From a virus: 64,000 bases of DNA. The translations under genes were made by a program, and so were the position numbers. The notes under the pieces were generated by a model. The model searched no databases. It saw nothing but the letters and a program-made list of their open reading frames with translations, and was not told where the DNA came from. Numbering within the stretch: position 1 is the first letter of the stretch; every line of letters begins with the position of its first letter. Below are positions 54,522-64,000 of the stretch, piece after piece. The stretch lies in IMG/VR virus record IMGVR_UViG_3300031994_000007; one strand, written 5' to 3'.

Positions 54522-54553
54522 GTAATCACAAAAGAGAAAAGGAGATAAAAAAA

Positions 54554-54709: not shown

Positions 54710-54738
54710 AAAGCGTGATTTTTTTTTTGAAAAAGTGC

Positions 54739-54767
54739 TTGACAAATCGCCCGGGCAATGCTATAAT
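54739..54767 (+). promoter_or_regulatory. class A promoter driving structured RNA copy 4
   Basis: TTGACA-aatcGCCCGGGCaatgc-TATAAT. Confidence 0.6.
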
Positions 54768-54773
54768 ACAATC

Positions 54774-54824
54774 ACAGGTTGAAGGAAACCGCACCGGGGC
54801 AGAGGAGGGGAGAGACTGACTTAA
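54774..54824 (+). ncRNA. repeated structured RNA element, copy 4
   Basis: ACAGGTTGAAGGAAACCGCACCGGGGCAGAGGAGGGGAGAGACTGACTT. Confidence 0.45.
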
Positions 54825-54863
54825 TAGTTACAAAAGAAAAACAAAAAATTTCTAAAAAAAACT

Positions 54864-54892
54864 CTTGACATTTGCCCGGTCTTGTGATATTA
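54864..54892 (+). promoter_or_regulatory. class A-like promoter TTGACA-17-TATTAT
   Basis: Spacer tttGCCCGGtCttgtga (one mismatch to the box). Confidence 0.55.
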
Positions 54893-54945
54893 TAATACCA
54901 GAAAGAGGGAAGGAAAACCCAATAAACCAGAAGGGAAAAGAAAAG

Positions 54946-55377
54946 ATGAAAGAACTATACAGAGTGGAGCACATGACCAGAAGTGACTATGATGAATACA
55001 TGTGCGGGGGCTATAACTATAGGGTGCAGAAAATAAATGTGCTCGCGGAAAACCTGCAGGACGCCGCCCAAATCGTTAAAGAAATGTTCCCGTCTCATGT
55101 AATTAATGATGGTTATGTCAAAACTGTCGCTGAACTTGAGGCAGAACAAGCGGCAAAGGAAGCAGAATGGGAAGCCGAAAAAAGGAAAAAAGCAGAGCAG
55201 AAAGCCAAAAAAGAAGCTTTTGAAAAAGCCCATCCTGAGATTGTGGCAGAGCGCAAAAGAAAAGCAAAAATTACCAGAGCAAAAACAACAATTAAAGGAC
55301 TTGAAAAGCAGATTGCAGAAGCTGAAAAGAATCTTGCATACTGGAAAGCAAAACTTGAAGAACTTGAAAAGGGCTGA
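54946..55377 (+). CDS. hypothetical early protein with Lys/Glu-rich coiled-coil C-terminus (143 aa)
   Basis: RBS-proximal ATG in frame with track ORF 54865..55377. Terminator AAAAGGGCT-GAAAAA-AGCCCTTTT+T. Confidence 0.6.
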   Translation: MKELYRVEHMTRSDYDEYMCGGYNYRVQKINVLAENLQDAAQIVKEMFPSHVINDGYVKTVAELEAEQAAKEAEWEAEKRKKAEQKAKKEAFEKAHPEIVAERKRKAKITRAKTTIKGLEKQIAEAEKNLAYWKAKLEELEKG

Positions 55378-55407
55378 AAAAAGCCCTTTTCTTTTTTTAG
55401 AAAAGTG

Positions 55408-55436
55408 CTTGACAAATCCCCCAACCTATGATACAA
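55408..55436 (+). promoter_or_regulatory. promoter TTGACA-17-TACAAT driving structured RNA copy 5
   Basis: Sequence consensus. Confidence 0.55.
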
Positions 55437-55442
55437 TACAAT

Positions 55443-55492
55443 CACAGGCGGAGGGACGCCCCACGCGGGGAGCCGAGGGGGAAGACTGACTT
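55443..55492 (+). ncRNA. repeated structured RNA element, copy 5
   Basis: ACAGGCGGAGGGACGCCCCACGCGGGGAGCCGAGGGGGAAGACTGACTT. Confidence 0.45.
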
Positions 55493-55533
55493 TAGGTTAC
55501 AAAATGGTAACAAAAAATTTCTAAAAAAAGTAG

Positions 55534-55562
55534 TTGACAAATGCCCGGGCTTGTGATATTAT
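55534..55562 (+). promoter_or_regulatory. class A promoter TTGACA-aatGCCCGGGCttgtga-TATTAT
   Basis: Preceded by a GTTAC-N6-GTAAC inverted repeat (55506-55521). Confidence 0.6.
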
Positions 55563-55597
55563 AATACCAGAAAAAGAAAAGAAAGGAAGTAAATACA

Positions 55598-55771
55598 ATG
55601 TATAGAATCAAAATCGAAAGCGAACATGCCCCCAATACTTACAAATGGTATAATAACCCTCAGCAAGCGCATCTTGTAGCCTATACCATTATTAAGAATA
55701 AGGACGCAAATATTGTAACAGTGGAAAACCTTAAAGAAAAAAAGATTGAAAAAATTTATAAAAGGGCTTGA
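55598..55771 (+). CDS. hypothetical early protein (57 aa)
   Basis: RBS GAAAGGAAG. TGA stop formed by the -35 TTGACA of the next promoter. Confidence 0.55.
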   Translation: MYRIKIESEHAPNTYKWYNNPQQAHLVAYTIIKNKDANIVTVENLKEKKIEKIYKRA

Positions 55772-55796
55772 CAAATAGCCCGGCCTATGGTATAAT
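55768..55796 (+). promoter_or_regulatory. class B-like promoter (GGGCTTGACAAATAGCCC)-TATAAT
   Basis: Sequence consensus. Confidence 0.55.
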
Positions 55797-55830
55797 AAAG
55801 GCACAAAGAAAGAAAAGGAGATAAAAGAAA

Positions 55831-55989
55831 ATGAACGTTAACGAAATCAAAGAAAGAATTGAAAAACTTGAACGCTGGTGCTGGTTTGAGCAGATGGCAG
55901 ATTTTATGAACTGGACAGCCTACAACAAAGCACAGGCTGAAATCAAAGAGTTGAAAAAAAAGTTAGCAGAAATTGAAAAAGGGGCTTGA
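55831..55989 (+). CDS. hypothetical early protein (52 aa)
   Basis: RBS AAAGGAGATAAAAGAAA-ATG. C-terminal KGA-TGA inside the next -35. Confidence 0.55.
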   Translation: MNVNEIKERIEKLERWCWFEQMADFMNWTAYNKAQAEIKELKKKLAEIEKGA

Positions 55990-56014
55990 CAAAACAAGCC
56001 CCAGATGGTATAAT
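55986..56014 (+). promoter_or_regulatory. class B hairpin promoter
   Basis: GGGGCTTGACAAAACAAGCCCC...TATAAT. Confidence 0.6.
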
Positions 56015-56048
56015 AAATACAGAAAGAAAGAAAAGGAGAATTAAAAAA

Positions 56049-56333
56049 ATGAGTTATTTTATGGGAAATGGTCGTGCCGATACTTGCCGCCACAACGATG
56101 AAGTTTATAAAGGCAAGGCGGTTGAGATGATGATTGATGTGCTGGAAACCCGCGACGGCTTTGAGCTTCGCAAGGCAAGCGACAGCACTGGAGCGGCGGC
56201 AAAGTTCCGCATCTTTTGGGACGGTGAGTGCATCAGCACCGTCTATAATGAAAAGGAAGCACGGGCACTGTTTAACGACTTCGCCCCAGCGCCCCAGCGG
56301 AAGGCGGGACGCCCTAAGAAGAATGCGGCATAA
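56049..56333 (+). CDS. hypothetical early protein (94 aa), basic C-terminus
   Basis: RBS AAAGGAGAATTAAAAAA-ATG. TAA stop. Confidence 0.6.
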   Translation: MSYFMGNGRADTCRHNDEVYKGKAVEMMIDVLETRDGFELRKASDSTGAAAKFRIFWDGECISTVYNEKEARALFNDFAPAPQRKAGRPKKNAA

Positions 56334-56379
56334 AAAGCCGCTTCTTCATCGCCCGGGCAAAGATTACAAAAGAAAAACA

Positions 56380-56408
56380 TTGACAAATAGCCAAAAGCAT
56401 GTTATAAT
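56380..56408 (+). promoter_or_regulatory. promoter TTGACA-17-TATAAT
   Basis: Preceded by tcGCCCGGGCaaag just after the upstream stop. Confidence 0.6.
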
Positions 56409-56440
56409 GTAATCACAAAAGAGAAAAGGAGATAAAGAAA

Positions 56441-56617
56441 ATGACTTACGAAGAAATGTACGACTTGCTGGCCAATACCCTTGGGATCGATGAGAATGCC
56501 CTTGATTTGGCTTTTGCTGTTGGTGGATGCAATGAAGAAACTGCTGAAAGAATTTTATTCTATTACACTGGCTGGCATTCCTTTGAGGGCTGGTTGGGTG
56601 AGCAGGAAGAGGGCTGA
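56441..56617 (+). CDS. acidic hypothetical early protein (58 aa)
   Basis: RBS AAAGGAGATAAAGAAA-ATG. Terminator GAGGGCT-GAAAAA-AGCCCTC+TTTTG. Confidence 0.6.
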   Translation: MTYEEMYDLLANTLGIDENALDLAFAVGGCNEETAERILFYYTGWHSFEGWLGEQEEG

Positions 56618-56662
56618 AAAAGCCCTCTTTTGCCCGGGCGGAAAAGTTACAAAAAAAAGTCA

Positions 56663-56691
56663 TTGACAAACCAAAAGATGTATGGTATTAT
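56663..56691 (+). promoter_or_regulatory. promoter TTGACA-17-TATTAT
   Basis: Sequence consensus. Confidence 0.55.
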
Positions 56692-56721
56692 AATACCAGA
56701 AAGAGAAAAGGAGATAAAAAA

Positions 56722-56895
56722 ATGAAAGTCAAAGATTTAATGAACATTCTCAGCAAGTATGACATGGACGACGATGTAAGGGTTATTAGTTATGATGATA
56801 ACGCAATAATTCAAATTGGTAATTACAGACCCTCTGCTGGCCCCTATGGTGACAAGTATCCTTTCTTTATTCCGTATGGTGAAATTACTACTTGA
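56722..56895 (+). CDS. hypothetical early protein (57 aa)
   Basis: RBS AAAGGAGATAAAAAA-ATG. TGA stop. Confidence 0.6.
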   Translation: MKVKDLMNILSKYDMDDDVRVISYDDNAIIQIGNYRPSAGPYGDKYPFFIPYGEITT

Positions 56896-56913
56896 AAAAA
56901 ATAAAAAAGGGGC

Positions 56914-56942
56914 TTGACAAAACAAGCCCCGCATGATATAAT
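56914..56942 (+). promoter_or_regulatory. class B hairpin promoter
   Basis: GGGGCTTGACAAAACAAGCCCC...TATAAT. Confidence 0.6.
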
Positions 56943-56974
56943 ACAATCACAAAGAAAGAAAAGGAGAAATAAAA

Positions 56975-57100
56975 ATGATTACTTGCGCTGAATGTCTGTG
57001 CCATAATGAGTGCCCGCTGTATCGTGGTGAAGATACCGACCCCTGTTGGTATGAAAAAATCAGAAAAGAAAAGGAGAACAAAGAAAATGAAAAAGTTTGA
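56975..57100 (+). CDS. Cys-rich micro-protein (41 aa; putative zinc-binding)
   Basis: MITCAECLCHNECPLYRGEDTDPCWYEK... RBS AAAGGAGAAATAAAA-ATG. Confidence 0.5.
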   Translation: MITCAECLCHNECPLYRGEDTDPCWYEKIRKEKENKENEKV

Positions 57101-57224
57101 AGCTAAGATTACCCGCGACAATGCCGAAATCAAGTGCATTGTGGAAGCTATTGACAAAGACCACGCCGCCCGCCGCTTCTTTGAGATTCTGGGAGAGCAC
57201 GGCCTGAAAATCAAGGAACTGTAA
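57087..57224 (+). CDS. hypothetical early protein (45 aa), overlaps previous ORF by 14 nt
   Basis: RBS AAAAGGAGAAC inside the upstream ORF. In frame with track ORF 57006..57224. Terminator GGAACTGTAAAAAGTTCC. Confidence 0.5.
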   Translation: MKKFEAKITRDNAEIKCIVEAIDKDHAARRFFEILGEHGLKIKEL

Positions 57225-57292
57225 AAAGTTCCTTGACTTTTGCCCGGGCGATTTACCTCAAAAATTTTAAGTAAAAAAATTAAAAAAGAGGC

Positions 57293-57321
57293 TTGACAAA
57301 TGCCCGGGCTTATGTTATTAT
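57293..57321 (+). promoter_or_regulatory. class A promoter TTGACA-aatGCCCGGGCttatgt-TATTAT
   Basis: Sequence consensus. Confidence 0.6.
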
Positions 57322-57352
57322 AATACCAGAAAGAACAAAGGAGATAAAAAAA

Positions 57353-57562
57353 ATGAACATGAATGAGAAAATCAAAGAACTGGAAGCCAAAGGGTACAAC
57401 AAGCATGACACCTATGAAGTGGATGAAGCCGCGAATGGTGGATGGGTTATTACAGTTTATACCAGTCTGTGGGGTTTTGAAGAGTATTTGTATGATACAG
57501 ACGGAAATCCCATTGAAGCAACAGAAATCAATCTGTATGGCAAGCCCCAAAAAATTTATTAA
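57353..57562 (+). CDS. hypothetical early protein (69 aa)
   Basis: RBS AAAGGAGATAAAAAAA-ATG. In frame with track ORF 57293..57562. Confidence 0.6.
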   Translation: MNMNEKIKELEAKGYNKHDTYEVDEAANGGWVITVYTSLWGFEEYLYDTDGNPIEATEINLYGKPQKIY

Positions 57563-57570
57563 ATTGGGGC

Positions 57571-57599
57571 TTGACAAATAAAACAAAGCATGTTATAAT
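57571..57599 (+). promoter_or_regulatory. promoter TTGACA-17-TATAAT
   Basis: Sequence consensus. Confidence 0.6.
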
Positions 57600-57633
57600 A
57601 AATACAGAAAGAAAGAAAAGGAGAAATAAAAAA

Positions 57634-57852
57634 ATGAAAGCAATTATGGTTGATAACAAGATTCTGTCTCTGGAAAATGTAAAAGAAGTTGAATTCTATG
57701 AGGGCGGGACAGGAGCACAGCGAAATCCCTTTTATTATGGGGTAGCAATTGATTATATGAATGGAGAGCATTCTTCGTCTGGCTCTACAAACAATAAAGA
57801 AAAAGCCAAAGAATGGTTTAATAAAATCTTTGAAATTATTACCGCTGAATAA
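57634..57852 (+). CDS. hypothetical early protein (72 aa)
   Basis: RBS AAAAGGAGAAATAAAAAA-ATG. Terminator ATTACCGCT-GAAT-AAGCGGTAAT+T6. Confidence 0.6.
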   Translation: MKAIMVDNKILSLENVKEVEFYEGGTGAQRNPFYYGVAIDYMNGEHSSSGSTNNKEKAKEWFNKIFEIITAE

Positions 57853-57914
57853 GCGGTAATTTTTTACTGCCGAAAATACTTCAAAAATTTTAAGTAAAAA
57901 CCGCAAAAAACCTA

Positions 57915-57943
57915 TTGACAAATCGCCCGGGCAATGCTATACT
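57915..57943 (+). promoter_or_regulatory. class A promoter driving structured RNA copy 6
   Basis: TTGACA-aatcGCCCGGGCaatgc-TATACT. Confidence 0.55.
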
Positions 57944-57949
57944 ATAATC

Positions 57950-58000
57950 ACAGGTTGAGGGAAACCGCACTCGGGCAGAAGAGGGGAAAGACTGACTTTA
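57950..58000 (+). ncRNA. repeated structured RNA element, copy 6
   Basis: ACAGGTTGAGGGAAACCGCACTCGGGCAGAAGAGGGGAAAGACTGACTT, followed by a GTTAC-N6-GTAAC inverted repeat. Confidence 0.45.
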
Positions 58001-58049
58001 AGTTACAAAATAGTAACAATAATTTTTTTAGAAAAAATAAAAAAAAGGC

Positions 58050-58078
58050 TTGACAAGCCCGGGCATGTATGCTATAAT
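58050..58078 (+). promoter_or_regulatory. class A promoter TTGACA-aGCCCGGGCatgtatgc-TATAAT
   Basis: Sequence consensus. Confidence 0.6.
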
Positions 58079-58114
58079 GTAATCACAAAGAGGGAAGGAA
58101 AAGGAGATAAAAAA

Positions 58115-58336
58115 ATGGAAAAGAAATTTATTTATGATGTAGCAGGCAACCTTTATGAAGATACCGAAGCCTTTGGCAAGGCTTGGAAGGCCGCAAAGGA
58201 AAAGGCCACAACTCTCCACTGTGCGATTTATCGCACTGTCTGCAAGGGAGAGACAGAACGCCGGGAGGTGTTCTTCAAGGGCAGGTGCTTCAACAATGTA
58301 AAATACGCCACTTCTGACAACGTGATGATTTTCTAA
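58115..58336 (+). CDS. hypothetical early protein (73 aa)
   Basis: RBS AAAAGGAGATAAAAAA-ATG. Terminator CTAAGGGATT-A6-AATCCCTTAG. Confidence 0.65.
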   Translation: MEKKFIYDVAGNLYEDTEAFGKAWKAAKEKATTLHCAIYRTVCKGETERREVFFKGRCFNNVKYATSDNVMIF

Positions 58337-58374
58337 GGGATTAAAAAAATCCCTTAGAAAATTAAAAAAAATGC

Positions 58375-58403
58375 TTGACATGTAAAACAAAGTATGCTAT
58401 AAT
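58375..58403 (+). promoter_or_regulatory. promoter TTGACA-17-TATAAT
   Basis: Sequence consensus. Confidence 0.6.
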
Positions 58404-58436
58404 ACAGACAGAAAGAAAGAAAAGGAGAATAAAACA

Positions 58437-58760
58437 ATGAAAGTTAAAATGAATCAGCTAACCTATCACGCAAAAGAAGAAAGACGCGATAGACGCGAAA
58501 TCGTCAAACAAGTTGGAATTGGTAAACCAATAGCACAGGTTAAAAAATTCAATGACAATGGTAGAGAAAAAATTGAAATGCTCACAGATACAGGGCTGGT
58601 TATTATAATGGGTGATGATAATAAAATCATAACTCTTTACCTTGCGAGTACCGCAAAAGCGGCAGCCATTTATAAATCAGCACACGGCGCAAATGCAAAA
58701 ATGCCTGCACAAATCTTTGAACAAATCAAAATAAATCGTATCATGTTCCCCGCTGATTAA
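58437..58760 (+). CDS. hypothetical early protein (107 aa)
   Basis: RBS AAAAGGAGAATAAAACA-ATG. Terminator TCCCCGCT-GATTAA-AGCGGGGA. Confidence 0.65.
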   Translation: MKVKMNQLTYHAKEERRDRREIVKQVGIGKPIAQVKKFNDNGREKIEMLTDTGLVIIMGDDNKIITLYLASTAKAAAIYKSAHGANAKMPAQIFEQIKINRIMFPAD

Positions 58761-58769
58761 AGCGGGGAC

Positions 58770-58798
58770 TTGATTTTTATAAAAAAAAATGATATAAT
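58770..58798 (+). promoter_or_regulatory. promoter TTGATT-17-TATAAT
   Basis: Overlaps the upstream terminator tail. Confidence 0.45.
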
Positions 58799-58834
58799 AA
58801 ATTATAAAATAAAATAAAGGAGGCCGAAAAAGTT

Positions 58835-58951
58835 ATGGACTTAATGCTTGCCCGGGCACTTTTAGCAATCGCAAAGTATTGCGCTTCTTGTGATGATTGT
58901 GATAAATGTGCTTTACATGAATTCTGCGGGAAAATACCATTAGAGTGGTAA
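58835..58951 (+). CDS. Cys-rich micro-protein (38 aa, C-x2-C-x2-C-x2-C...C)
   Basis: MDLMLARALLAIAKYCASCDDCDKCALHEFCGKIPLEW. RBS AAAGGAGG. Followed by two GC hairpins (58960-59060). Confidence 0.45.
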   Translation: MDLMLARALLAIAKYCASCDDCDKCALHEFCGKIPLEW

Positions 58952-59067
58952 TTAACGCGGCGACCGCACCCAATCGGGGCGGTTCGAACTTTCGCACGGT
59001 AAAGCGTTGAAGAATTTTTCGGCCATTAAGTCGGGCAAAACTTTTAATGTTTTTTGCCCGAAACCTA

Positions 59068-59096
59068 TTGACAAATAAATACTCTTGTGTTATACT
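59068..59096 (+). promoter_or_regulatory. promoter TTGACA-17-TATACT
   Basis: Sequence consensus. Confidence 0.55.
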
Positions 59097-59145
59097 ATAA
59101 TTGTTCCAAGAGAGAACAACAAAAACAAAAAAGGAGAATACAACA

Positions 59146-59328
59146 ATGTATAATGTGCGGTTTACTGACACCATCCATGGTGAGATGGAAGAGAACTTTG
59201 ATAGCTATGATGCGGCTATGGAGTATTGGAATAGCTATGCTGATACCGAGTCTTGTGTGGCTGGTGTCATGATGGATTTGGATAATTGCGAAATTATCTG
59301 GAATTTTGACGACAGGGAGGCAGAATAA
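59146..59328 (+). CDS. acidic hypothetical early protein (60 aa)
   Basis: RBS AAAAGGAGAATACAACA-ATG. In frame with track ORF 59101..59328. Confidence 0.55.
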   Translation: MYNVRFTDTIHGEMEENFDSYDAAMEYWNSYADTESCVAGVMMDLDNCEIIWNFDDREAE

Positions 59329-59589
59329 ATGAAAAAGATTCTTGCTTTTGTCCTTGTTTTTGTTCTTATCCTATCGTTGGGCATAAGCGCTTATGCTTAT
59401 AATAAATCTATCTTTGATTTGAAATACCATTTCAATTATGCTTATGTAGATTTGTTAAATGGTACGACAGTTGAGGGTAAAGTCCAGAGTTGGAAAGACT
59501 GGGAAGATTCAGACATGTTGCAAGTCACTTTTGAGGATGGAGCTACTTATTATTCCCATTCTTCTAACATTATGCTTGTTTCAAAATAA
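59329..59589 (+). CDS. secreted/membrane-anchored small protein (86 aa) with N-terminal signal/TM segment
   Basis: MKKILAFVLVFVLILSLGISAYA... Start immediately follows the upstream TAA. RBS GGGAGG. Confidence 0.6.
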   Translation: MKKILAFVLVFVLILSLGISAYAYNKSIFDLKYHFNYAYVDLLNGTTVEGKVQSWKDWEDSDMLQVTFEDGATYYSHSSNIMLVSK

Positions 59590-59603
59590 TAATAAAAAAG
59601 GGC

Positions 59604-59632
59604 TTGACAAACAAGCCCTTTTGTGCTATTAT
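59604..59632 (+). promoter_or_regulatory. class B hairpin promoter
   Basis: AAGGGCTTGACAAACAAGCCCTT...TATTAT. Confidence 0.6.
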
Positions 59633-59662
59633 AATACCAGAAAAGGAAAGGGAAATAAAAAA

Positions 59663-59842
59663 ATGACTACTTACAGAGAACGCCTGCTTGACCGCATGAT
59701 TGCCCTTTATGGGCTTGAAAATCCAATTGTTATCGAGTTTGCCAATATGTGCGAAAAATATGGGGATAATTCTTGGAATGATGATTTTCTGCGGCTCTTG
59801 GTAGAAGCCCATGAAGCAGACCCAGTTTTTAAGGAAGATTAA
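59663..59842 (+). CDS. hypothetical early protein (59 aa)
   Basis: RBS AAAGGGAAATAAAAAA-ATG. Terminator GGAAGATT-AAAA-ATCTTCC. Confidence 0.55.
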   Translation: MTTYRERLLDRMIALYGLENPIVIEFANMCEKYGDNSWNDDFLRLLVEAHEADPVFKED

Positions 59843-59888
59843 AAATCTTCCTTAATCGCCCGGGCAGAAAAGTGACAAAAGAAAGACA

Positions 59889-59917
59889 TTGACAAACTAT
59901 AAATAATGTGTTATAAT
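59889..59917 (+). promoter_or_regulatory. promoter TTGACA-17-TATAAT
   Basis: Preceded by aatcGCCCGGGCagaaaag. Confidence 0.6.
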
Positions 59918-59948
59918 AAAGGCACAAAAAGAAAAGGAGAATAAAACA

Positions 59949-60386
59949 ATGAATAAAGTTTTCAACAAAATAAAGACATGGGCTGAACCTGTGAGCGATT
60001 GGTGGTTTTTTAATTGGGAAGCTGTTGTAGTTATAATTTTTATAGCGGCTGTGCTTATTGGGCTTGTGGTACTCGCTTTATGGGCTTCTGGTGCTTTTTA
60101 TGATGAAGTCGAAAATTATGACTTCACAGCGCAGGTGTATGATAAAGACCACTATACCACTCAATCAGTAAGTTATATTACTTCTGGTAAAACTCGCATT
60201 CCTGTATACCATACTCATCATCACTACAAAGTAATGTGGGAAGATGGTGGAGAACGTGGTACATTTGAAATTGGTGAAGACCATTATGATTTAATTAAAA
60301 TCGGGGACTTTATCAATGTTCATTGCTCTGTGAGGGCAGACAAGCAGGGTGAACTTCATTATTATTATAGTTTCAAGGGATATTAA
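59949..60386 (+). CDS. membrane protein (145 aa) with one TM helix and His-rich segment
   Basis: TM 'AVVVIIFIAAVLIGLVVLALWA'. RBS AAAAGGAGAATAAAACA-ATG. Terminator CAAGGGAT-ATTAAA-ATCCCTTG. Confidence 0.65.
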   Translation: MNKVFNKIKTWAEPVSDWWFFNWEAVVVIIFIAAVLIGLVVLALWASGAFYDEVENYDFTAQVYDKDHYTTQSVSYITSGKTRIPVYHTHHHYKVMWEDGGERGTFEIGEDHYDLIKIGDFINVHCSVRADKQGELHYYYSFKGY

Positions 60387-60415
60387 AATCCCTTGAAATT
60401 TTTTTCAAAAAGTGC

Positions 60416-60444
60416 TTGACAAGTCCAAAAGAGTATGTTATAAT
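60416..60444 (+). promoter_or_regulatory. promoter TTGACA-17-TATAAT
   Basis: Sequence consensus. Confidence 0.6.
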
Positions 60445-60477
60445 GAAGGCACAAAGAAAGAAAAGGAGAATAAAAAA

Positions 60478-60939
60478 ATGAATAACGAAGTAATTAAGGC
60501 AATGAATAAACAGCCCCGTAAAAAAAGCAATTTTCAAAAGTGGTGGGAACAAAACGATTATAAAGTTTGGCGTGTCGTGCTGTTCCCCATTTGGATTTAT
60601 GTGTGGAGCAGAGAAAAAATTAAAACTTATCTTAATTCCCGTACAGTATGGAATGAAAACAGAGCGAATGAAATACTTAGTTATTACATTCCCCGCTGTG
60701 CTCGTTGGAATAATGAAAATAAAACCTTTTATTATTTTAATAATGGGTATGGATGGGAAATGGGCTTTGCTAAAAAGTATTTGAAAATTAAAGACCGTAG
60801 ATTTTGGAATCTTTATGCGTGTTGGCGTATTCGTGATTATCTTATCAAAAATTTTGAACTGGAAGGGTTCACCAAAGAAATTGGTAACTGCTACGATGGC
60901 TGGACTGAAATCACTTTCAGAATGAAAACAGAGGATTAA
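60478..60939 (+). CDS. Trp/aromatic-rich hypothetical early protein (153 aa)
   Basis: RBS AAAAGGAGAATAAAAAA-ATG. In frame with track ORF 60412..60939. Terminator ACAGAGGATT-A5-ATCCTCTGT+T7. Confidence 0.65.
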   Translation: MNNEVIKAMNKQPRKKSNFQKWWEQNDYKVWRVVLFPIWIYVWSREKIKTYLNSRTVWNENRANEILSYYIPRCARWNNENKTFYYFNNGYGWEMGFAKKYLKIKDRRFWNLYACWRIRDYLIKNFELEGFTKEIGNCYDGWTEITFRMKTED

Positions 60940-60968
60940 AAAATCCTCTGTTTTTTTCAAAAAAGGGC

Positions 60969-60997
60969 TTGACAAATCGCCCGGGCTATGTTATATT
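60969..60997 (+). promoter_or_regulatory. class A promoter driving structured RNA copy 7 (variant)
   Basis: TTGACA-aatcGCCCGGGCtatgt-TATATT. Confidence 0.55.
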
Positions 60998-61003
60998 ATA
61001 GTC

Positions 61004-61050
61004 ACAGGCGGAGGGACGCCACACTCGGGTAGTAGAGGGGGAGGCTTTTT
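61004..61050 (+). ncRNA. repeated structured RNA element, copy 7 (divergent 3' end with T-run)
   Basis: ACAGGCGGAGGGACGCCACACTCGGGTAGTAGAGGGGGAGGCTTTTTTT. Confidence 0.4.
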
Positions 61051-61119
61051 TTATTTGGAGAATGTGGGGGAGGTTGCCCGGGCGGCGGCAAAAGAAAAAC
61101 AAAAAATTACAAAAAAAGA

Positions 61120-61148
61120 CATTGACAAATAACCAGAAGTATGCTATT
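61120..61148 (+). promoter_or_regulatory. promoter TTGACA-17-TATTAT
   Basis: Preceded by gttGCCCGGGCggcggc. Confidence 0.55.
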
Positions 61149-61184
61149 ATAATACCAGAAAGAGAGATAAAGGAGGACAAAAAA

Positions 61185-61373
61185 ATGTATTTCGTTCTTG
61201 ATATTGTCAGTAATAAAACGGTCGCAATGACCGCTTTTAGAGACGCGGCGGAAATTATCGCCGCAAACTTCCCCGCAAAGTGCGTAGTTCGCTACGCCGC
61301 TGAAATAGTTAGCGGGTATTCTAAAGACAGCCTGTTCTTTGAGAATGAGCAGGAAATGAAAAAAGGGGCTTGA
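61185..61373 (+). CDS. hypothetical early protein (62 aa)
   Basis: RBS AAAGGAGGACAAAAAA-ATG. KKGA-TGA stop inside the next -35. Confidence 0.55.
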   Translation: MYFVLDIVSNKTVAMTAFRDAAEIIAANFPAKCVVRYAAEIVSGYSKDSLFFENEQEMKKGA

Positions 61374-61398
61374 CAAAATAGCCCCTTTATGATACAAT
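61370..61398 (+). promoter_or_regulatory. class B-like promoter TTGACA-17-TACAAT
   Basis: GGGGCTTGACAAAATAGCCCC. Confidence 0.55.
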
Positions 61399-61428
61399 AC
61401 CAATAGAAACAGAAAAGGAGAAATACAA

Positions 61429-61548
61429 ATGATGTATGACATTTATCCCTGCGATCTTGACCCATTCGGGGAGTGCCCGAAGCATTGTCAGGATTGCGCC
61501 CATTGCGTGGGCTGGTTCATGGATGAACCAGAGGACGAAGAAAATTAA
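61429..61548 (+). CDS. Cys-rich micro-protein (39 aa; putative zinc-binding)
   Basis: MMYDIYPCDLDPFGECPKHCQDCAHCVGWFMDEPEDEEN. RBS AAAAGGAGAAATACAA-ATG. Confidence 0.5.
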   Translation: MMYDIYPCDLDPFGECPKHCQDCAHCVGWFMDEPEDEEN

Positions 61549-61557
61549 AAAAGGGGC

Positions 61558-61586
61558 TTGACAAATACAACCCCCTGTGCTATAAT
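61558..61586 (+). promoter_or_regulatory. class B-like promoter TTGACA-17-TATAAT
   Basis: GGGGCTTGACAAATACAACCCCC. Confidence 0.55.
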
Positions 61587-61613
61587 AAAGACACAATAAA
61601 GGAGATGAAAACA

Positions 61614-61667
61614 ATGAAAGCACGACCGCCGCCCGCAAGGGCATGTGATTGGATTACTAATAATTAG
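61614..61667 (+). CDS. 17-aa micro-ORF (MKARPPPARACDWITNN) terminated by TAG
   Basis: RBS AAAGGAGATGAAAACA-ATG. The only TAG-terminated ORF in the early array. If TAG is read through it extends 9 codons to a TAA overlapping the next micro-ORF ATG (TAATG). Confidence 0.35.
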   Translation: MKARPPPARACDWITNN

Positions 61668-61687
61668 ATAGTAATGTATAGGAGAAT

Positions 61688-61827
61688 AAACTAATGAATA
61701 GAATTAGAGATGAGACGAAAACCTTTTAAGGTTTTCTAATAGATAGTATAGAATAGAAAGATAATAGAAAATGAGGAAAAACTAATGAATAGAATTAGAG
61801 ATGAGACTAAAACCTTTTAAGGTTTTT
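61688..61827 (+). repeat. tandem duplicated micro-ORF units (2 x ~48 bp, ~92 bp apart), each RBS + MNRIRDETKTF + stop-overlapping hairpin
   Basis: Units at 61688-61735 and 61780-61827 differ by 1 nt. ORFs at 61694..61729 and 61785..61820. Hairpin AAAACCTTTTAAGGTTTT. The surrounding 230 nt is unusually dense in TAG triplets. Confidence 0.5.
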
Positions 61828-61942
61828 GATGAATAGAATAGAATGATAGTAATAAAATAGAATAGAAGTAAGTGCCAAGGGGCGGCTCGGTTGGAGGATG
61901 GAAGTAGCCGAAAAAATTTTTCAAAAAATTTTGAAAAACCCC

Positions 61943-61971
61943 TTGACAAATGCCCGGGCATTTGTTATAAT
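61943..61971 (+). promoter_or_regulatory. class A promoter TTGACA-aatGCCCGGGCatttgt-TATAAT
   Basis: Sequence consensus. Confidence 0.6.
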
Positions 61972-62005
61972 ACAATCACAAAGAGAAAACAAGGAGAAAA
62001 AGAAA

Positions 62006-62119
62006 ATGATGACTAACGATTATTGGGAAGCTCACGAAGCCGAATGGCTTGCCGCTCAGGAGTGCATGGAGTGGCTCCTGTTTGAGGCCGACATGGCCAC
62101 TGACCCCTACCGGGATTAA
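62006..62119 (+). CDS. acidic micro-protein (37 aa)
   Basis: MMTNDYWEAHEAEWLAAQECMEWLLFEADMATDPYRD. RBS AAGGAGAAAAAGAAA-ATG. Hairpin CCCTACCGGG-attaaaa-CCCGGTAGGG overlaps the stop. Confidence 0.5.
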   Translation: MMTNDYWEAHEAEWLAAQECMEWLLFEADMATDPYRD

Positions 62120-62140
62120 AACCCGGTAGGGAGAAAATAC

Positions 62141-62169
62141 TTGACAAGTCCAAAAGTGTATGATATAAT
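62141..62169 (+). promoter_or_regulatory. promoter TTGACA-17-TATAAT
   Basis: Sequence consensus. Confidence 0.6.
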
Positions 62170-62198
62170 TAAGGCACAAAAACAAAGGAGATAAAAAA

Positions 62199-62516
62199 AT
62201 GAGAACTTGTAAAAACTGCGGTTGTTATCTTCCAGATAATTGGACTACTTGCCCCGCATGTTTTATGGATGAAAAGCAAGTTGAACATAAAACAGAAAAA
62301 CAGATTGATTCACACAAAGAGTCTTTTCTTAATAACATTTGCCGCGTTGATACATTCCATAAAAACAATACTAAAACATCAAATGTTTTTGCCTCTTATG
62401 AATACGCTATTAGATTTGCTCATTATATAGCTTGCGAATCTGACATAGCAATGGTTATTGTAACTGACATTCCCAGTGGGAAAATAATTGAAAAACTTTC
62501 TCGTAAAGGGTATTGA
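62199..62516 (+). CDS. zinc-ribbon protein (105 aa; C-x2-C-x10-C-x2-C N-terminus)
   Basis: MRTCKNCGCYLPDNWTTCPACF... RBS AAAGGAGATAAAAAA-ATG. TGA stop inside the next -35 (tatTGAcaa). Confidence 0.6.
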   Translation: MRTCKNCGCYLPDNWTTCPACFMDEKQVEHKTEKQIDSHKESFLNNICRVDTFHKNNTKTSNVFASYEYAIRFAHYIACESDIAMVIVTDIPSGKIIEKLSRKGY

Positions 62517-62541
62517 CAAATCCAAAAGCGTATGGTATAAT
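62513..62541 (+). promoter_or_regulatory. promoter TTGACA-17-TATAAT
   Basis: Sequence consensus. Confidence 0.6.
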
Positions 62542-62572
62542 TAAGGCACAAAAGGAAAAGGAGATAAGAAAA

Positions 62573-62713
62573 ATGTACGAATACGAAATTCGCTATCTGG
62601 CAACTGGTGAGACTGATTTTCTGTATGGATATTCTCGTCAGGACTTGGCAAGACGCTATCCCGAAATCCCAACCGATACTTATGTTATCATCTGCCGCGA
62701 GTACATCGACTGA
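62573..62713 (+). CDS. hypothetical early protein (46 aa)
   Basis: RBS AAAAGGAGATAAGAAAA-ATG. In frame with track ORF 62513..62713. Confidence 0.5.
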   Translation: MYEYEIRYLATGETDFLYGYSRQDLARRYPEIPTDTYVIICREYID

Positions 62714-62794
62714 TGGCTCGCGGTTTTCTATTCATTTTTTTAGAATGGTTATGCATTGTATAAGCATACATTATAAATGAATTTTATACGGGCT

Positions 62795-62835
62795 ATTTTC
62801 GGCGCGCCGCTCCTGGCCGACGCGGCGCGTTTTTC
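62795..62835 (+). terminator. GC-rich intrinsic terminator
   Basis: CGCGCCGC-tcctggccga-GCGGCGCG followed by TTTTT. Contains GGCGCGCC. Confidence 0.6.
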
Positions 62836-62974
62836 GCTGTAATAATTCTGCCACAATTTTGTCATCAATTTGTAACACATTCGCACAAACAGGCAAAGTC
62901 CCGAAATGAATAATTATACAATGAATAATGAATAAAAATTCAAAAAATTTTTTTGAAAAAATTAAAAAAAAGTG

Positions 62975-63003
62975 TTGACAAACGCCCGGGCATCTGCTAT
63001 AAT
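62975..63003 (+). promoter_or_regulatory. class A promoter TTGACA-aacGCCCGGGCatctgc-TATAAT
   Basis: Sequence consensus. Confidence 0.6.
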
Positions 63004-63035
63004 CATAGACAGAAAGGGACAAGGAGGATAAAAAA

Positions 63036-63443
63036 ATGACTAACTACTACTTCGACATGGACGGCGTTCTGGCTGACTTCCACGGTGCTTATACTGATAG
63101 GGCACAGGCTTTTCAGTATGATTTTATTGCTAACCTTGCCCCATTTACCGCAAATGTTGAACTTGCAAAGTCCCTCATAGCACAGGGCAATCGGGTTTAT
63201 ATCTCCACCATTGCCGCAAGTGAAGAAGCAAAGCAGGCGAAAATTGATTGGCTTGCTAAGTATCTTCCGGAAATCCCCAGCTATCGTATCATTATCATTG
63301 TTGGGCATGGTAACAAGGCCGAACACATGAGAACAAAGACCGGAATCCTCATTGACGACAAGCGCGCCAACTGCCGCCAATGGGAAAAGGCCGGACAGCG
63401 TGCGGTGTGGCTGGAAATCAAGGGGGGAGCAATCTCCCTTTGA
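63036..63443 (+). CDS. HAD-superfamily 5'(3')-deoxyribonucleotidase-like protein, paralog 2 (135 aa)
   Basis: Shares 'YYFDMDGVLADFH..Y..RAQA...ANLAPF...AKIDWLAKY(I/L)PEI' with 52381..52782 (~50% identity). RBS AAGGAGGATAAAAAA-ATG. Confidence 0.65.
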   Translation: MTNYYFDMDGVLADFHGAYTDRAQAFQYDFIANLAPFTANVELAKSLIAQGNRVYISTIAASEEAKQAKIDWLAKYLPEIPSYRIIIIVGHGNKAEHMRTKTGILIDDKRANCRQWEKAGQRAVWLEIKGGAISL

Positions 63444-63477
63444 TTCTAAAAAAAATTGTTTTGTAACTATTTTGTAG

Positions 63478-63506
63478 TTGATTTTGCCCGGGCTATTTGT
63501 TATAAT
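63478..63506 (+). promoter_or_regulatory. class A-like promoter TTGATT-ttGCCCGGGCtatttgt-TATAAT
   Basis: Sequence consensus. Confidence 0.5.
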
Positions 63507-63537
63507 TAAGCCAGAAAGAAACAAGGAGGACAAAAAA

Positions 63538-63972
63538 ATGTACGCTATCACTTATTCCAACATCATTCACTGCAAGAAATCCGGCGACACCGCACAGCAG
63601 ACCGCAAACTTCTACCACACCGGACGGACGGAAAGACACGACGATCGCCCCTGGTATGAGGGAAGTGATATTGAAGAAATCGCCGCAAGCGTCAAGTCTA
63701 ATGGTTTTAGTCTTGCTGATGGCCGCACCAATCACGGCGACACGCTGGAAGAAAAATGGAACGATTTTCGTACCCGCACCGCTTCCAATCTCTTTATTTA
63801 TGTAACCAATAATTTTACCGGTTATTACATGAATATTGATGAGTTTGAAGAGTTTGTGAAAATGTGGTGCTATGTTAGCACAGAATCCGCAAAAAACGGC
63901 GGGCGGTCTAAAATTAGATGTAAGCACGAAAGCCAAAAAATGCGGAATTGGTTAGCTCACAGGGCGGGATAA
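63538..63972 (+). CDS. hypothetical early protein (144 aa)
   Basis: RBS AAGGAGGACAAAAAA-ATG. In frame with track ORF 63478..63972. Hairpin GCGGGATAAAAACCCGC after the stop. Confidence 0.6.
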   Translation: MYAITYSNIIHCKKSGDTAQQTANFYHTGRTERHDDRPWYEGSDIEEIAASVKSNGFSLADGRTNHGDTLEEKWNDFRTRTASNLFIYVTNNFTGYYMNIDEFEEFVKMWCYVSTESAKNGGRSKIRCKHESQKMRNWLAHRAG

Positions 63973-64000
63973 AAACCCGCCCAAAACGAAAAAAAGTTCT

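What the first reader, a model, noticed from the sequence alone, without database searches (positions are those of the whole stretch)
61558..61900. TAG-rich leader with a TAG-terminated micro-ORF and tandem MNRIRDETKTF micro-ORFs: possible suppression sensor
Behind promoter 61558 a 17-aa ORF ends at TAG, the only TAG stop in the early array. If TAG is read as sense it continues 9 codons to a TAA that overlaps the ATG of the first of two nearly identical micro-ORF units. Each unit is RBS + 11-aa ORF + stop-overlapping hairpin AAAACCTTTTAAGGTTTT. The surrounding ~230 nt contains more than 20 TAG triplets. In an amber-recoded phage this could be a translational switch that reports suppressor-tRNA availability, or tandem leader peptides.
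Basis: inference. Interest (0 to 1): 0.65.

Follow-up and report, generated by a model that had tools for sequence, protein, structure and literature searches.

The report
Conserved two-micro-ORF early phage RNA
The flagged stretch is a real, conserved early transcript of an amber-recoding phage that carries two tiny translated-looking ORFs and a structured 3' hairpin, but the features that suggested an "amber-suppression sensor" occur in only one of twelve related lineages.

Summary
The sequence observation holds. A consensus promoter (61558-61586) is followed by a 17-codon ORF ending in TAG, two 94%-identical units each encoding MNRIRDETKTF, a stop-overlapping hairpin, and a TAG-dense, C-poor tract. 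That tract has 17 TAG, not >20, against 5.7±2.1 expected. The phage does read TAG as sense in its late genes.

Eleven further lineages of the same cassette argue against the sensor reading:
- The upstream ORF ends in TGA (8 lineages), TAA (3) or TAG (window only).
- In the other lineages 18-51 nt separate the upstream ORF's stop from the ORF-B ATG, so the window's readthrough-to-TAATG route is unique.
- The 91-nt duplication is also unique to the window.
- TAG and TAA interchange freely in the tail.

What is conserved:
- The starts of both micro-ORFs, MKAR(P/S)PP and MNRIRDET. Nine of 11 variable columns fall at third codon positions (p≈2e-4).
- A nearly invariant 47-nt block containing a hairpin.
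- A 3' hairpin with compensatory stem changes and a conserved GGA-rich loop.

Best reading: an unannotated, translated regulatory leader or dual-function early RNA. A ribosome-occupancy-controlled fold is inferred, not shown. No Rfam or annotated phage match was found.

The parts
61558..61586 (+). Promoter P_A, TTGACA-17-TATAAT (12/12, TG-extended), with its -35 box inside a GGGG...CCCC hairpin
   Evidence: conserved in all 12 lineages.
61599..61604 (+). Shine-Dalgarno AAGGAG of ORF-A, 9 nt before the ATG
   Evidence: The format matches the other early genes. Invariant in alignment A6.
61614..61667 (+). ORF-A, MKARPPPARACDWITNN, with TAG stop. Relatives have 8-19 codons ending in TGA or TAA. 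The conserved part is MKAR(P/S)PP
   Evidence: In codons 1-7, 5 of 6 variable columns fall at third positions (p=0.0055), while 6 of 9 columns in codons 8-10 vary. ORF-A uses CGA and CCG, which are rare in the early genes.
61631..61642 (+). Small hairpin GCCC-GCAA-GGGC inside ORF-A
   Evidence: -8.2 kcal/mol. Two lineages change G-C to G-U.
61644..61646 (+). TGT codon in the window. Seven relatives have TGA here and two have TAA, ending ORF-A at codon 10
61647..61693 (+). Nearly invariant 47-nt block X1 (GATTGGATTACTAATAATTAGATAGTAATGTATAGGAGAATAAACTA), including the SD of ORF-B (AGGAG, 61680-61684)
   Evidence: Only 5 of 47 columns vary across 12 lineages. By comparison, 22-35% of third positions in the adjacent gene differ between lineages.
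61653..61675 (+). Hairpin HP1, ATTACTA / loop ATAATTAGA / TAGTAAT. The window's TAG stop lies in the loop
   Evidence: -4.8 kcal/mol. Three different A>G changes in the 3' arm all give U.G pairs.
61694..61729 (+). ORF-B copy 1, MNRIRDETKTF, with TAA stop
   Evidence: MNRIRDET is kept in 11 of 12 lineages, with one E>K change in the twelfth. Four of 5 variable columns fall at third positions (p=0.028).
61717..61736 (+). Hairpin GAAAACCTTTTAAGGTTTTC overlapping the ORF-B stop (the 'L form')
   Evidence: -8.7 kcal/mol, z -3.6. Present in 5 of 12 lineages.
61773..61826 (+). Second copy of the 54-nt unit (SD GAGGA, ORF-B2 at 61785-61820, hairpin at 61809-61826), from a lineage-specific 91-nt tandem duplication
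   Evidence: Absent from 11 of 12 lineages.
61828..61872 (+). C-poor, A/U/G-rich tail with (A)ATAGA repeats. It evolves fast but stays C-poor
   Evidence: 17 of 40 columns vary, only 2 of them involving C, and TAG and TAA interchange.
61883..61910 (+). 3' hairpin CGGCT[CGGTTGGAGGATGGAAGT]AGCCG, with a covarying stem and a conserved GGA/SD-like loop
   Evidence: One search shows two pairs with compensatory changes (C-G to U-A, G-C to A-U). Only 3 of 18 loop columns vary. In L021 the stem is longer and followed by a U5 tract, making a proper terminator.
61871..61894 (+). 3' arm complementary to ORF-A codons 3-11 (61622-61646). This pairing is mutually exclusive with the 3' hairpin
   Evidence: The duplex is -24 to -31 kcal/mol in 8 of 12 lineages (shuffles about -18±3). 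It is -21.7 in L046 and lost in L019, L021 and L040.
61917..61938 (+). A/T palindrome TTTTTCAAAA-AA-TTTTGAAAAA upstream of the next promoter (UP-element-like)
   Evidence: I6. Stem kept and loop variable across lineages. The same motif precedes promoter 62975.
61943..61971 (+). Promoter P_B (12/12) with the palindromic spacer ACAAATGCCCGGGCATTTGT. It drives the 37-aa gene at 62006-62119

Best explanation
The region is one conserved early transcription unit of a TAG-recoding phage. A consensus host-type promoter drives an RNA of about 270-350 nt with no long ORF.

Shown by comparison of 12 lineages:
- Two ribosome-accessible micro-ORFs. ORF-A starts MKAR(P/S)PP and has a free C-terminus of 8-19 codons. 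ORF-B encodes MNRIRDET, with or without KTF.
- A 47-nt almost invariant block with a small hairpin between the two ORFs.
- A fast-evolving but persistently C-poor, stop-rich A/U/G tail.
- A 3' hairpin whose stem covaries and whose GGA-rich loop is conserved.
- Then the UP-like A/T palindrome and the independent promoter of the next gene.

They arise from three mutations. A T replaces the A of a TGA or TAA stop. One extra A is inserted. A 91-nt tandem duplication is present.

Inferred mechanism: the unit is a translated regulatory leader or dual-function early RNA.
- Ribosomes load on ORF-A and slow on CGA-CCG-CCG-CCC (R-P-P-P).
- While they occupy that segment it cannot pair with the complementary 5' half of the 3' hairpin. 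Ribosome occupancy would therefore decide which of two mutually exclusive folds the RNA adopts.
- ORF-B's conserved nascent peptide would add a second translation-dependent input.
- The C-poor tail would keep the untranslated part free of Rho loading sites.
- The output would be read-through into the downstream early genes, or the stability or activity of the RNA itself. Which of these applies is not known.
For: - Transcription unit: the promoter and SD format are identical to those of the 27 neighbouring early genes.
- Conservation map: variable columns are 3 of 21 in the 5'UTR/SD and 5 of 47 in X1. They are 3 of 18 in the hairpin loop. This compares with 17 of 40 in the tail and 6 of 9 in ORF-A codons 8-10.
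- Neutral yardstick: 22-35% of third positions in the adjacent 37-aa gene differ between lineages.
- Coding signature: third positions account for 5 of 6 variable columns in ORF-A codons 1-7 and 4 of 5 in ORF-B codons 1-8. Combined hypergeometric p≈2e-4.
- An ATT>ATC change in L039 keeps the peptide but breaks the weak start-codon hairpin.
- PPP is kept through synonymous changes in L040 and L046.
- 3' hairpin: two pairs show compensatory changes and one lineage has a full terminator.
- Alternative fold: the ORF-A segment pairs with the 5' half of that hairpin at -24 to -31 kcal/mol in 8 of 12 lineages. At most 5% of shuffles reach that value.
- Stall-prone codons: CGA is 1% and CCG 14% of their synonymous sets in the early genes.
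- Polyproline stalling is known to uncouple translation from transcription and to alter termination (PMC5021804).
- Lineage-specific origin of the TAG stop, the overlap and the duplication.
Against: - The downstream 37-aa gene has its own perfect promoter, so a leader is not needed to express it.
- Only 1 of 12 lineages has a canonical terminator (stem plus U-tract). In the window the hairpin is followed by A6U5.
- The long-range complementarity is lost without compensation in L019, L021 and L040, and is weak in L046. It shows no double-sided covariation.
- PPP becomes SPP in two lineages.
- The sample is 12 closely related lineages with possible recombination. Column counts are therefore not independent events.
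- There are no expression or ribosome-occupancy data.
- No trans target or known RNA family was found. The output of the proposed switch is therefore undefined.
Confidence: 0.4

Rival explanations
1. Amber-suppression sensor. ORF-A stops at TAG early in infection. Once the suppressor tRNA appears, ribosomes read through to the TAA that overlaps the ORF-B ATG and re-initiate, reporting the code switch.
For: - In the window lineage the geometry is exactly as described.
- This is the only TAG stop among 27 early ORFs.
- The phage does recode TAG, probably to Gln.
Against: - ORF-A ends in TAG in 1 of 12 lineages, against TGA in 8 and TAA in 3.
- In the other lineages 18-51 nt separate the ORF-A stop from the ORF-B ATG, and the frame relation differs because they lack the extra A.
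- L007 is TAG-recoded yet uses TGA here.
- ORF-B has its own strong SD and does not need coupling.
- TAG triplets in the tail are replaced by TAA in L019 and L044.
Confidence: 0.05
2. Trans-acting small RNA or protein sponge. The RNA itself is the product. The invariant X1 block with HP1 and the GGA/SD-like hairpin loop would bind a host or phage factor, such as a CsrA-like protein, the 30S subunit or an RNase. The micro-ORFs would serve only to load ribosomes and stabilise the RNA.
For: - X1 is more conserved than any coding constraint requires, with 5 of 47 variable columns.
- HP1 changes are all structure-compatible.
- The conserved loop has three GGA motifs.
- The same early array holds several other promoter-driven structured RNAs with GGA-type loops.
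Against: - The third-position bias in both ORFs is not explained by an RNA-only function.
- GGA is not enriched overall; by my own count there are about 7, against roughly 5 expected from composition.
- No complementary target was found in the 64-kb window or in the L001 locus.
- No Rfam family matches.
Confidence: 0.2
3. Micropeptide genes. The 8-19-residue products act in trans on a host target.
For: - Amino-acid-level conservation of MKAR(P/S)PP and MNRIRDET.
- Strong SDs.
Against: - The C-termini are free to vary in both length and sequence. That is unusual for a folded or binding peptide and typical of nascent-chain or initiation-region constraints.
- Products of 8-10 residues are expected to be unstable (general knowledge, not tested).
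Confidence: 0.15
4. Decaying gene cassette or neutral spacer. A former small early gene has been wrecked by nonsense mutations and microsatellite-like (AATAG)n expansion and has no function.
For: - Variable ORF-A stop, indels, a 91-nt duplication and a fast-evolving low-complexity tail.
- In one NCBI contig an HNH endonuclease gene lies directly upstream of the 37-aa gene.
Against: - Near-invariance of X1, the SDs, both ORF starts and the hairpin loop, while neighbouring synonymous sites have diverged 22-35%.
- Compensatory changes in the 3' hairpin.
- The tail stays C-poor despite 17 of 40 variable columns.
Confidence: 0.08
5. Anti-defence RNA decoy, for example a mimic of a type III antitoxin (pseudo-ToxI) or of a CRISPR repeat, whose dose was raised by the duplication.
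For: It is a promoter-driven, repeat-containing early RNA with copy-number variation between lineages and a hairpin at the end. This resembles the pseudo-ToxI expansion in phage PhiTE, which is recalled from memory and was not tested.
Against: - The unit is 91 nt rather than 34-45 nt, and 11 of 12 lineages have a single copy.
- No toxin gene, cas gene or matching repeat was found.
- The coding-type substitution pattern is left unexplained.
Confidence: 0.05
6. Binding platform for a ring-shaped UAG/GAG-repeat RNA-binding protein (HutP-like or TRAP-like).
For: There are 17 TAG and 25 (G/T)AG triplets in about 230 nt.
Against: - Start-to-start spacings are irregular: 4, 10, 20, 6, 35, 4, 5, 5, 11, 25, 6, 38, 5, 8, 11, 5. 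They do not match the 7-nt (HutP) or 5-6-nt (TRAP) register.
- TAG positions in the tail are not conserved.
Confidence: 0.03

Closest known systems
Leader-peptide attenuators and translation-attenuation leaders (trpL/pheL type; ermCL, cat and cmlA leader type)
   Same: Very short SD-ATG ORFs sit at the 5' end of a transcript. Peptide-level conservation is limited to a few residues. A downstream hairpin exists, and a segment inside the leader ORF is complementary to one arm of that hairpin. Ribosome position could therefore choose between two folds.
   Different: - There are two unrelated micro-ORFs.
- There is no run of one regulatory codon beyond PPP.
- There is no canonical terminator in 11 of 12 lineages.
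- The next gene has its own consensus promoter.
- The alternative pairing is missing in 3-4 lineages.
Polyproline/EF-P-dependent pausing that uncouples translation and transcription (Elgamal, Artsimovitch and Ibba 2016, PMC5021804)
   Same: ORF-A carries R-P-P-P near its start, written with codons that are rare in the early genes. It lies upstream of an untranslated stretch and a hairpin.
   Different: The published cases are ordinary genes and engineered reporters in E. coli. Here the motif sits in an 8-19-codon ORF of a phage, is SPP in two lineages, and stalling has not been measured.
Dual-function small RNAs with an embedded small ORF (for example RNAIII/hld, SgrS/SgrT, SR1/SR1P)
   Same: A promoter-driven RNA of a few hundred nt combines conserved structured RNA parts with a short translated ORF.
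   Different: No base-pairing target was identified. The ORFs are much shorter (8-19 codons). There is no sequence or Rfam relationship.
Phage lambda bar minigenes
   Same: Phage-encoded, strongly initiated, extremely short ORFs in an early transcript.
   Different: The bar ORFs are 2 codons long and act through peptidyl-tRNA drop-off of one tRNA. Here the ORFs are 8-19 codons long and the last sense codon varies synonymously (ACG, ACC, ACT or TTT).
prfB-type stop-codon sensing (an in-frame stop that reports release-factor activity)
   Different: The TAG stop is not conserved here (1 of 12 lineages). No frameshift or read-through signal is conserved.

Membership tests
   Stops are TGA in 8 lineages, TAA in 3 and TAG in 1. 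L007 is TAG-recoded.
   This holds only in the window, which has an extra A. Elsewhere 18-51 nt separate the ORF-A stop from the ORF-B ATG, and the frame differs.
   Eleven of 12 lineages have a single unit.
Ribosome-mediated attenuator (leader peptide) | A short ORF with SD and ATG in the leader, translated | tested here: met
   SD spacing is 8-9 nt as in the neighbouring genes. Third-position bias gives p≈2e-4. Translation itself is inferred, not measured.
Ribosome-mediated attenuator (leader peptide) | Mutually exclusive alternative hairpins, one of which involves the leader ORF | tested here: inconclusive
   A strong duplex forms between ORF-A and the 5' half of the 3' hairpin in 8 of 12 lineages. 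It is lost in 3-4 and shows no double-sided covariation.
Ribosome-mediated attenuator (leader peptide) | An intrinsic terminator (GC stem plus U-tract) before the regulated gene | tested here: not met
   In the window the hairpin at 61883-61910 has a 5-bp stem and is followed by A6U5. Only L021 has a stem followed by U5.
Ribosome-mediated attenuator (leader peptide) | The regulated gene depends on the leader's promoter | tested here: not met
   A consensus promoter at 61943-61971 lies directly upstream of the 37-aa gene in all lineages.
Any Rfam family (T-box, riboswitches, known leaders, known sRNAs) | A covariance-model match | tested here: not met
   No hit at gathering score in the window. 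Only chance-level hits appear at E≤10 in 61500-62010. None were found in relatives.
Type III antitoxin RNA / pseudo-ToxI decoy | Two or more tandem direct repeats of about 34-45 nt | tested here: not met
   The unit is 91 nt (54 nt of it highly similar). There are two copies only in the window lineage.
Type III antitoxin RNA / pseudo-ToxI decoy | A cognate ToxN/AbiQ-type toxin in the host with a matching repeat | not testable with these tools
   The host is unknown. Exact-pattern scans of genome, metagenome and viral collections found only the same phage clade.
HutP or TRAP RNA target | Regular register of UAG (7-nt) or (G/U)AG (5-6-nt) triplets | tested here: not met
   Spacing is irregular. 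TAG positions in the tail are not conserved.
CsrB/RsmZ-type sponge | Many GGA motifs presented in hairpin loops | tested here: inconclusive
   One conserved loop has three GGA. Overall there are about 7 GGA, close to the composition expectation by my own count. No CsrA data exist.
CRISPR mini-array / repeat mimic | Repeats of 24-48 nt separated by unique spacers, matching a host repeat | tested here: not met
   Similarity continues through the 'spacer' (families D2-D4), so this is a tandem duplication. There is no second copy in relatives.

The most novel reading that the evidence does not exclude
The cassette would be a translation-state sensor built from two arrest-type micro-ORFs. Ribosome dwell time on R-P-P-P (rare CGA and CCG codons) and on the conserved MNRIRDET nascent chain would set the fold of the RNA and so time early gene expression. 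In the window lineage the TGA>TGT change has, secondarily, put ORF-A termination, and hence the melting of HP1 and coupling to ORF-B, under control of amber suppression. That single lineage would then have a read-out of the code switch.
Probability: 0.1. Interest if true: 0.7.

Novelty: new variant of a known kind. Interest (0 to 1): 0.4.

Why it matters
How amber-recoding phages time the switch from standard to recoded translation is an open question. A built-in suppression sensor would have been a direct handle on it. The comparison argues that this locus is not such a conserved sensor, which removes an attractive but misleading lead.

What remains is still useful. It is an unannotated early RNA whose two 8-19-codon ORFs show peptide-level constraint. 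It sits next to an almost invariant RNA block and a covarying hairpin. The early region that holds it turns out to be packed with other promoter-driven structured RNAs. If the micro-ORFs act as stalling leaders, this would be a compact example of a phage using ribosome dwell time as an early regulatory input. It could be tested with simple reporters.

Tried and rejected
- tRNA and tmRNA scan of the window: none found. Related locus L001 has only tRNA-Leu(UAA) and tRNA-Lys(UUU), with no suppressor seen.
- Rfam at gathering and permissive thresholds on the window, the element and relatives: nothing.
- GenBank phage collection, near and distant modes: only promoter-like matches.
- Exact-pattern scans of IMG/VR, metagenome and genome collections with four different patterns: only the same clade, L007/L018 and L020.
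- The 17-mer hits L012-L017 are chance matches.
This was solved through the 105-aa and 40-aa neighbours and an exact look-up.
- Long-range GC helix as a conserved closing stem: rejected as universal because it is lost without compensation in L019, L021 and L040.
- Start-codon hairpin HP2: not selected, since it is broken by a synonymous change in L039.
- Hidden longer ORF with TAG as sense: open in L007 and L019 (33-35 codons) but closed by TGA or TAA in the others, by my own reading of the aligned sequences.
- Origin of the TAG-rich tail from a recoded late gene: no significant similarity.
- Trans targets complementary to X1 or the loop: only chance 10-12-mers.
- Homology of the 3' end with the GC-rich RNAs that occupy the same slot in more distant relatives (L025, L038): too weak to claim.
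- Palindrome AAAACC-N6-GGTTTT as a repeated operator: it occurs only in the two copies.
Full report
**Context**

The window holds a phage with two very different halves.

Positions 1-50 kb:
- This half is 26-33% G+C and is read on the minus strand.
- With the standard code its ORFs are shattered. With TAG as sense they reach 3128 and 2720 codons, with 84 and 75 in-frame TAG.
- In these genes CAG is almost absent and TAG is as common as CAA, which fits TAG = Gln.

Positions 52-64 kb:
- This half is about 40% G+C and reads on the plus strand.
- It is an array of some 35 perfect or near-perfect TTGACA-17-TATAAT promoters, each with a TG extension. Each is followed by AAGGAG, 8-9 nt, an ATG and a small gene.
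- TAG is strongly avoided in this early array, with 85 observed against 238 expected from composition.

**The observation**

- the promoter at 61558-61586
- a 17-codon ORF (61614-61667) with a well-spaced SD that ends in TAG
- the only TAG stop among 27 scored early ORFs (TAA 16, TGA 10, TAG 1)
- a read-through frame of eight more sense codons to a TAA that overlaps the ATG at 61694
- two 54-nt units, 94% identical and 91 nt apart, each with an SD and an 11-codon ORF (MNRIRDETKTF)
- an 8-bp hairpin of -8.7 kcal/mol around each ORF's UAA stop

The TAG count is 17 in 230 nt rather than more than 20. It is still the maximum of the window's plus strand and about three times the composition expectation (5.7±2.1). 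Six independent contigs from other samples carry the same arrangement with one or two SNPs, so it is not an assembly artefact.

**Finding relatives**

No annotated phage, Rfam family or tRNA matches the region. Relatives came from three sources:
- the NT5C-like neighbour gene (L007, a collinear relative 86-91% identical)
- homologues of the 105-aa and 40-aa neighbour proteins (L019, L021)
- an exact look-up of the 37-aa protein encoded just downstream (L039, L040, L042, L044-L046, L048)

One metagenome pattern hit added L020. Together with the window these give twelve distinct lineages of the cassette, aligned as A6. L007 carries late genes with in-frame TAG, so at least this relative is amber-recoded too.

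**What is lineage-specific**

- The upstream ORF (ORF-A) ends in TGA in eight lineages, TAA in three, and TAG only in the window. It is 8, 10, 17 or 19 codons long.
- The window has TGT at 61644-61646. Seven relatives have TGA there and two have TAA.
- The window also has one extra A near 61689, which creates the TAATG overlap.
- In the other lineages 18-51 nt separate the ORF-A stop from the ORF-B ATG, and the frames differ.
- The 91-nt duplication occurs only in the window lineage.
- After codon 8 of the second ORF (ORF-B) there are two allelic forms:
  - Seven lineages stop at codon 9 (TAA) and have no hairpin.
  - Five continue with KTF and the hairpin.
- In the tail, TAG and TAA replace each other between lineages (for example AAATAGAATAGAAG against AAATAAAATAAAAG).

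The conserved function therefore cannot be a sensor of amber suppression.

**What is conserved**

The yardstick is the adjacent 37-aa gene, whose third codon positions differ at 22-35% between lineages. Against that, the variable columns are as follows.

| Segment | Variable columns |
|---|---|
| 5' UTR and SD | 3 of 21 |
| ORF-A codons 1-7 | 6 of 21 (5 at third positions) |
| ORF-A codons 8-10 | 6 of 9 |
| Block X1 (61647-61693) | 5 of 47 |
| ORF-B codons 1-8 | 5 of 24 (4 at third positions) |
| Tail | 17 of 40 |
| 3' hairpin loop | 3 of 18 |

- The third-position bias gives hypergeometric p=0.0055 for ORF-A, 0.028 for ORF-B and about 2e-4 combined.
- MNRIRDET is unchanged in 11 lineages and has one E>K in the twelfth.
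- PPP is kept through CCG>CCA, CCG>CCC and CCC>CCT changes in L040 and L046, and becomes SPP in L019 and L048.
- A synonymous ATT>ATC in L039 breaks the weak hairpin around the ORF-B start. That points to the peptide, not that hairpin, as the constrained object.
- Inside X1, the hairpin ATTACTA/TAGTAAT shows three different A>G changes in its 3' arm, all of which give U.G pairs.
- The 3' hairpin CGGCT[18-nt loop]AGCCG has two pairs with compensatory double changes. In L021 it is lengthened and followed by U5, making a proper intrinsic terminator.
- The tail evolves fast yet stays almost free of C. Only 2 of its 17 variable columns involve C.

TAG enrichment of two- to three-fold over composition is seen in the five lineages tested (7-17 TAG per 120-230 nt). 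Because individual TAGs are not conserved, I attribute it to the C-poor A/U/G composition and to (A)ATAGA repeats, not to selection on the triplet.

**Mechanism**

Shown:
- The unit has the same promoter and SD format as the neighbouring genes.
- Both micro-ORF starts carry a coding-type substitution pattern.
- The X1 block and the hairpin loop are constrained as nucleotide sequence.
- The 3' hairpin is a real RNA helix.

Inferred:
- The ORF-A segment 61622-61646 is complementary to 61871-61894, which includes the 5' arm of the 3' hairpin.
- The predicted duplex is -24 to -31 kcal/mol in eight lineages, against about -18±3 for shuffles. It excludes the hairpin.
- ORF-A is written with CGA (1% of Arg codons in the early genes) and CCG (14% of Pro codons) across R-P-P-P.
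- Polyproline pauses are known to uncouple ribosomes from RNA polymerase and to change termination (PMC5021804).
- A ribosome dwelling on ORF-A would therefore free the 3' arm to form the hairpin. A vacant ORF-A would sequester it.
- ORF-B, strongly initiated and peptide-constrained, could add a second nascent-chain input.
- The C-poor tail would be a poor Rho substrate. That rests on general knowledge of rut sites and was not tested.

Weaknesses:
- The next gene has its own perfect promoter.
- Eleven of twelve lineages lack a U-tract after the hairpin.
- The complementarity is lost without compensation in L019, L021 and L040.
- Nothing is known about the output.

I put this translated-regulatory-RNA reading at about 0.4. 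An RNA-only function (sRNA or sponge) stands at about 0.2, trans-acting micropeptides at 0.15, and a decaying cassette at 0.08. The suppression sensor stands at 0.05, and then only as a lineage-specific novelty.

**Comparison with known systems**

The cassette works most like leader-peptide or translation-attenuation leaders and like dual-function small RNAs. It fails several defining tests of the classical attenuator:
- no canonical terminator
- an independent downstream promoter
- no conserved alternative pairing

It matches no Rfam family. It is not a HutP or TRAP target because the triplet spacing is irregular. It is not a type III antitoxin-like array because the unit is 91 nt and single-copy in 11 of 12 lineages. 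It is not a CRISPR-like array because the similarity runs through the 'spacer'. It is not a bar-type minigene because the ORFs are 8-19 codons long. I file it as a new variant of a known kind, a short-ORF-bearing regulatory RNA. Its mechanism is unproven.

**Surroundings**

The slot between an upstream promoter and an A/T-palindrome-plus-promoter is filled elsewhere in the array by other promoter-driven RNAs.

The first is a family of about 50 nt:
- It has seven copies in the window and more in L007, L019, L039 and L048.
- 99% of its cells are paired in a hairpin plus two interleaved 2-bp helices.
- Four of its pairs show double-sided changes.

The second group is in several relatives, where one or two larger GC-rich structured RNAs sit directly upstream of the cassette.

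None of these match Rfam. The cassette examined here is thus one member of a dense and so far undescribed set of early non-coding or micro-coding units in this phage clade.

Noticed in passing
window 51686-51745, 52214-52273, 53690-53749, 54769-54828, 55439-55498, 57945-58004, 60999-61058 (+): There are seven copies of a promoter-driven RNA motif of about 50 nt. Its consensus is AATCACAGG-NN-GARGGA-N'N'-CC-W-CAC-X-CGGG-Y-AG-N-X'-GAGGGG. The hairpin stem covaries (TT/AA, CT/AG, CG/CG). Two interleaved 2-bp helices (W-Y and X-X') are Watson-Crick in nearly every copy, which looks like a pseudoknot. 99.1% of cells are paired and four pairs show double-sided changes. No Rfam family matches. A covariance model finds 24 copies, all in the close clade (window, L001, L007, L019, L039, L048).
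   Followed up: partly
L044 250-830; L045 280-830; L040 and L046 520-830; L039 600-830; L001 10990-11770; L007 16999-17570: One or two further promoter-driven, GC-rich structured non-coding cassettes sit directly upstream of the element in several relatives. One type starts GTCAAGAGGGGTGA...CCCCCACCTGAC and the other starts AAAGGGGAAGGAAAACCCC. There are no Rfam hits. More distant relatives (L025 2660-2960, L038 200-520, L036 970-1290) have yet other structured RNAs in the same slot.
   Followed up: partly
window 61946-61965, also near 62978-62997 and 63485-63500: A perfect 20-bp palindrome, ACAAATGCCCGGGCATTTGT, fills the spacer of several consensus promoters and looks like an operator. Other promoters instead have the -35 box inside a GGGGCTTGACAA...AGCCCC hairpin, which the terminator scan picks up on the minus strand.
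   Followed up: no
window 62795-62835; L001 ~10805 and ~11826; L009 ~8610; L010 ~9770; L020 1-70 (minus): A conserved GC-rich hairpin, TTTTCGGCGCGCCG...CGGCGCGTTTTT, recurs ahead of the NT5C-like gene in both close and distant relatives.
   Followed up: no
L009 9430-9800: An array of about a dozen palindromes of the form TTGTTAAA(N2-4)TTTAACAA lies just upstream of the NT5C-like gene. It resembles iterons or operators and could be an origin or a regulator-binding array.
   Followed up: no
window 1-50000 versus 52000-64000: There is a sharp compositional and coding split. The late half is 26-33% G+C, on the minus strand, and TAG-recoded, with TAG replacing CAG. The early half is about 40% G+C, uses the standard code, and has TAG depleted about three-fold in all frames.
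   Followed up: partly
L001 14200-16200 (about 6-8 kb beyond the window's end): Seven consensus promoters have no ORF behind them. Only tRNA-Leu(UAA) at 14908-14994 and tRNA-Lys(UUU) at 16016-16090 were detected. No amber-suppressor tRNA was seen in the window or in this extension.
   Followed up: partly
NCBI contig of GCA_016648615.1 (DNA not available): In one relative a 209-aa HNH_3 endonuclease gene lies directly upstream of the 37-aa gene, about where the cassette sits in the window.
   Followed up: no
window 52381-52782 and 63036-63443: The early array holds two paralogous NT5C-like 5'-deoxyribonucleotidase genes of 133 and 135 aa. A third, fainter one lies in L001 at 12760-13194.
   Followed up: no
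window 54895-54930 and many other 5' UTRs: Many early 5' UTRs carry a small hairpin, GGG[AAGGAAAA]CCC, that presents an SD-like AAGGA in its loop upstream of the real SD.
   Followed up: no
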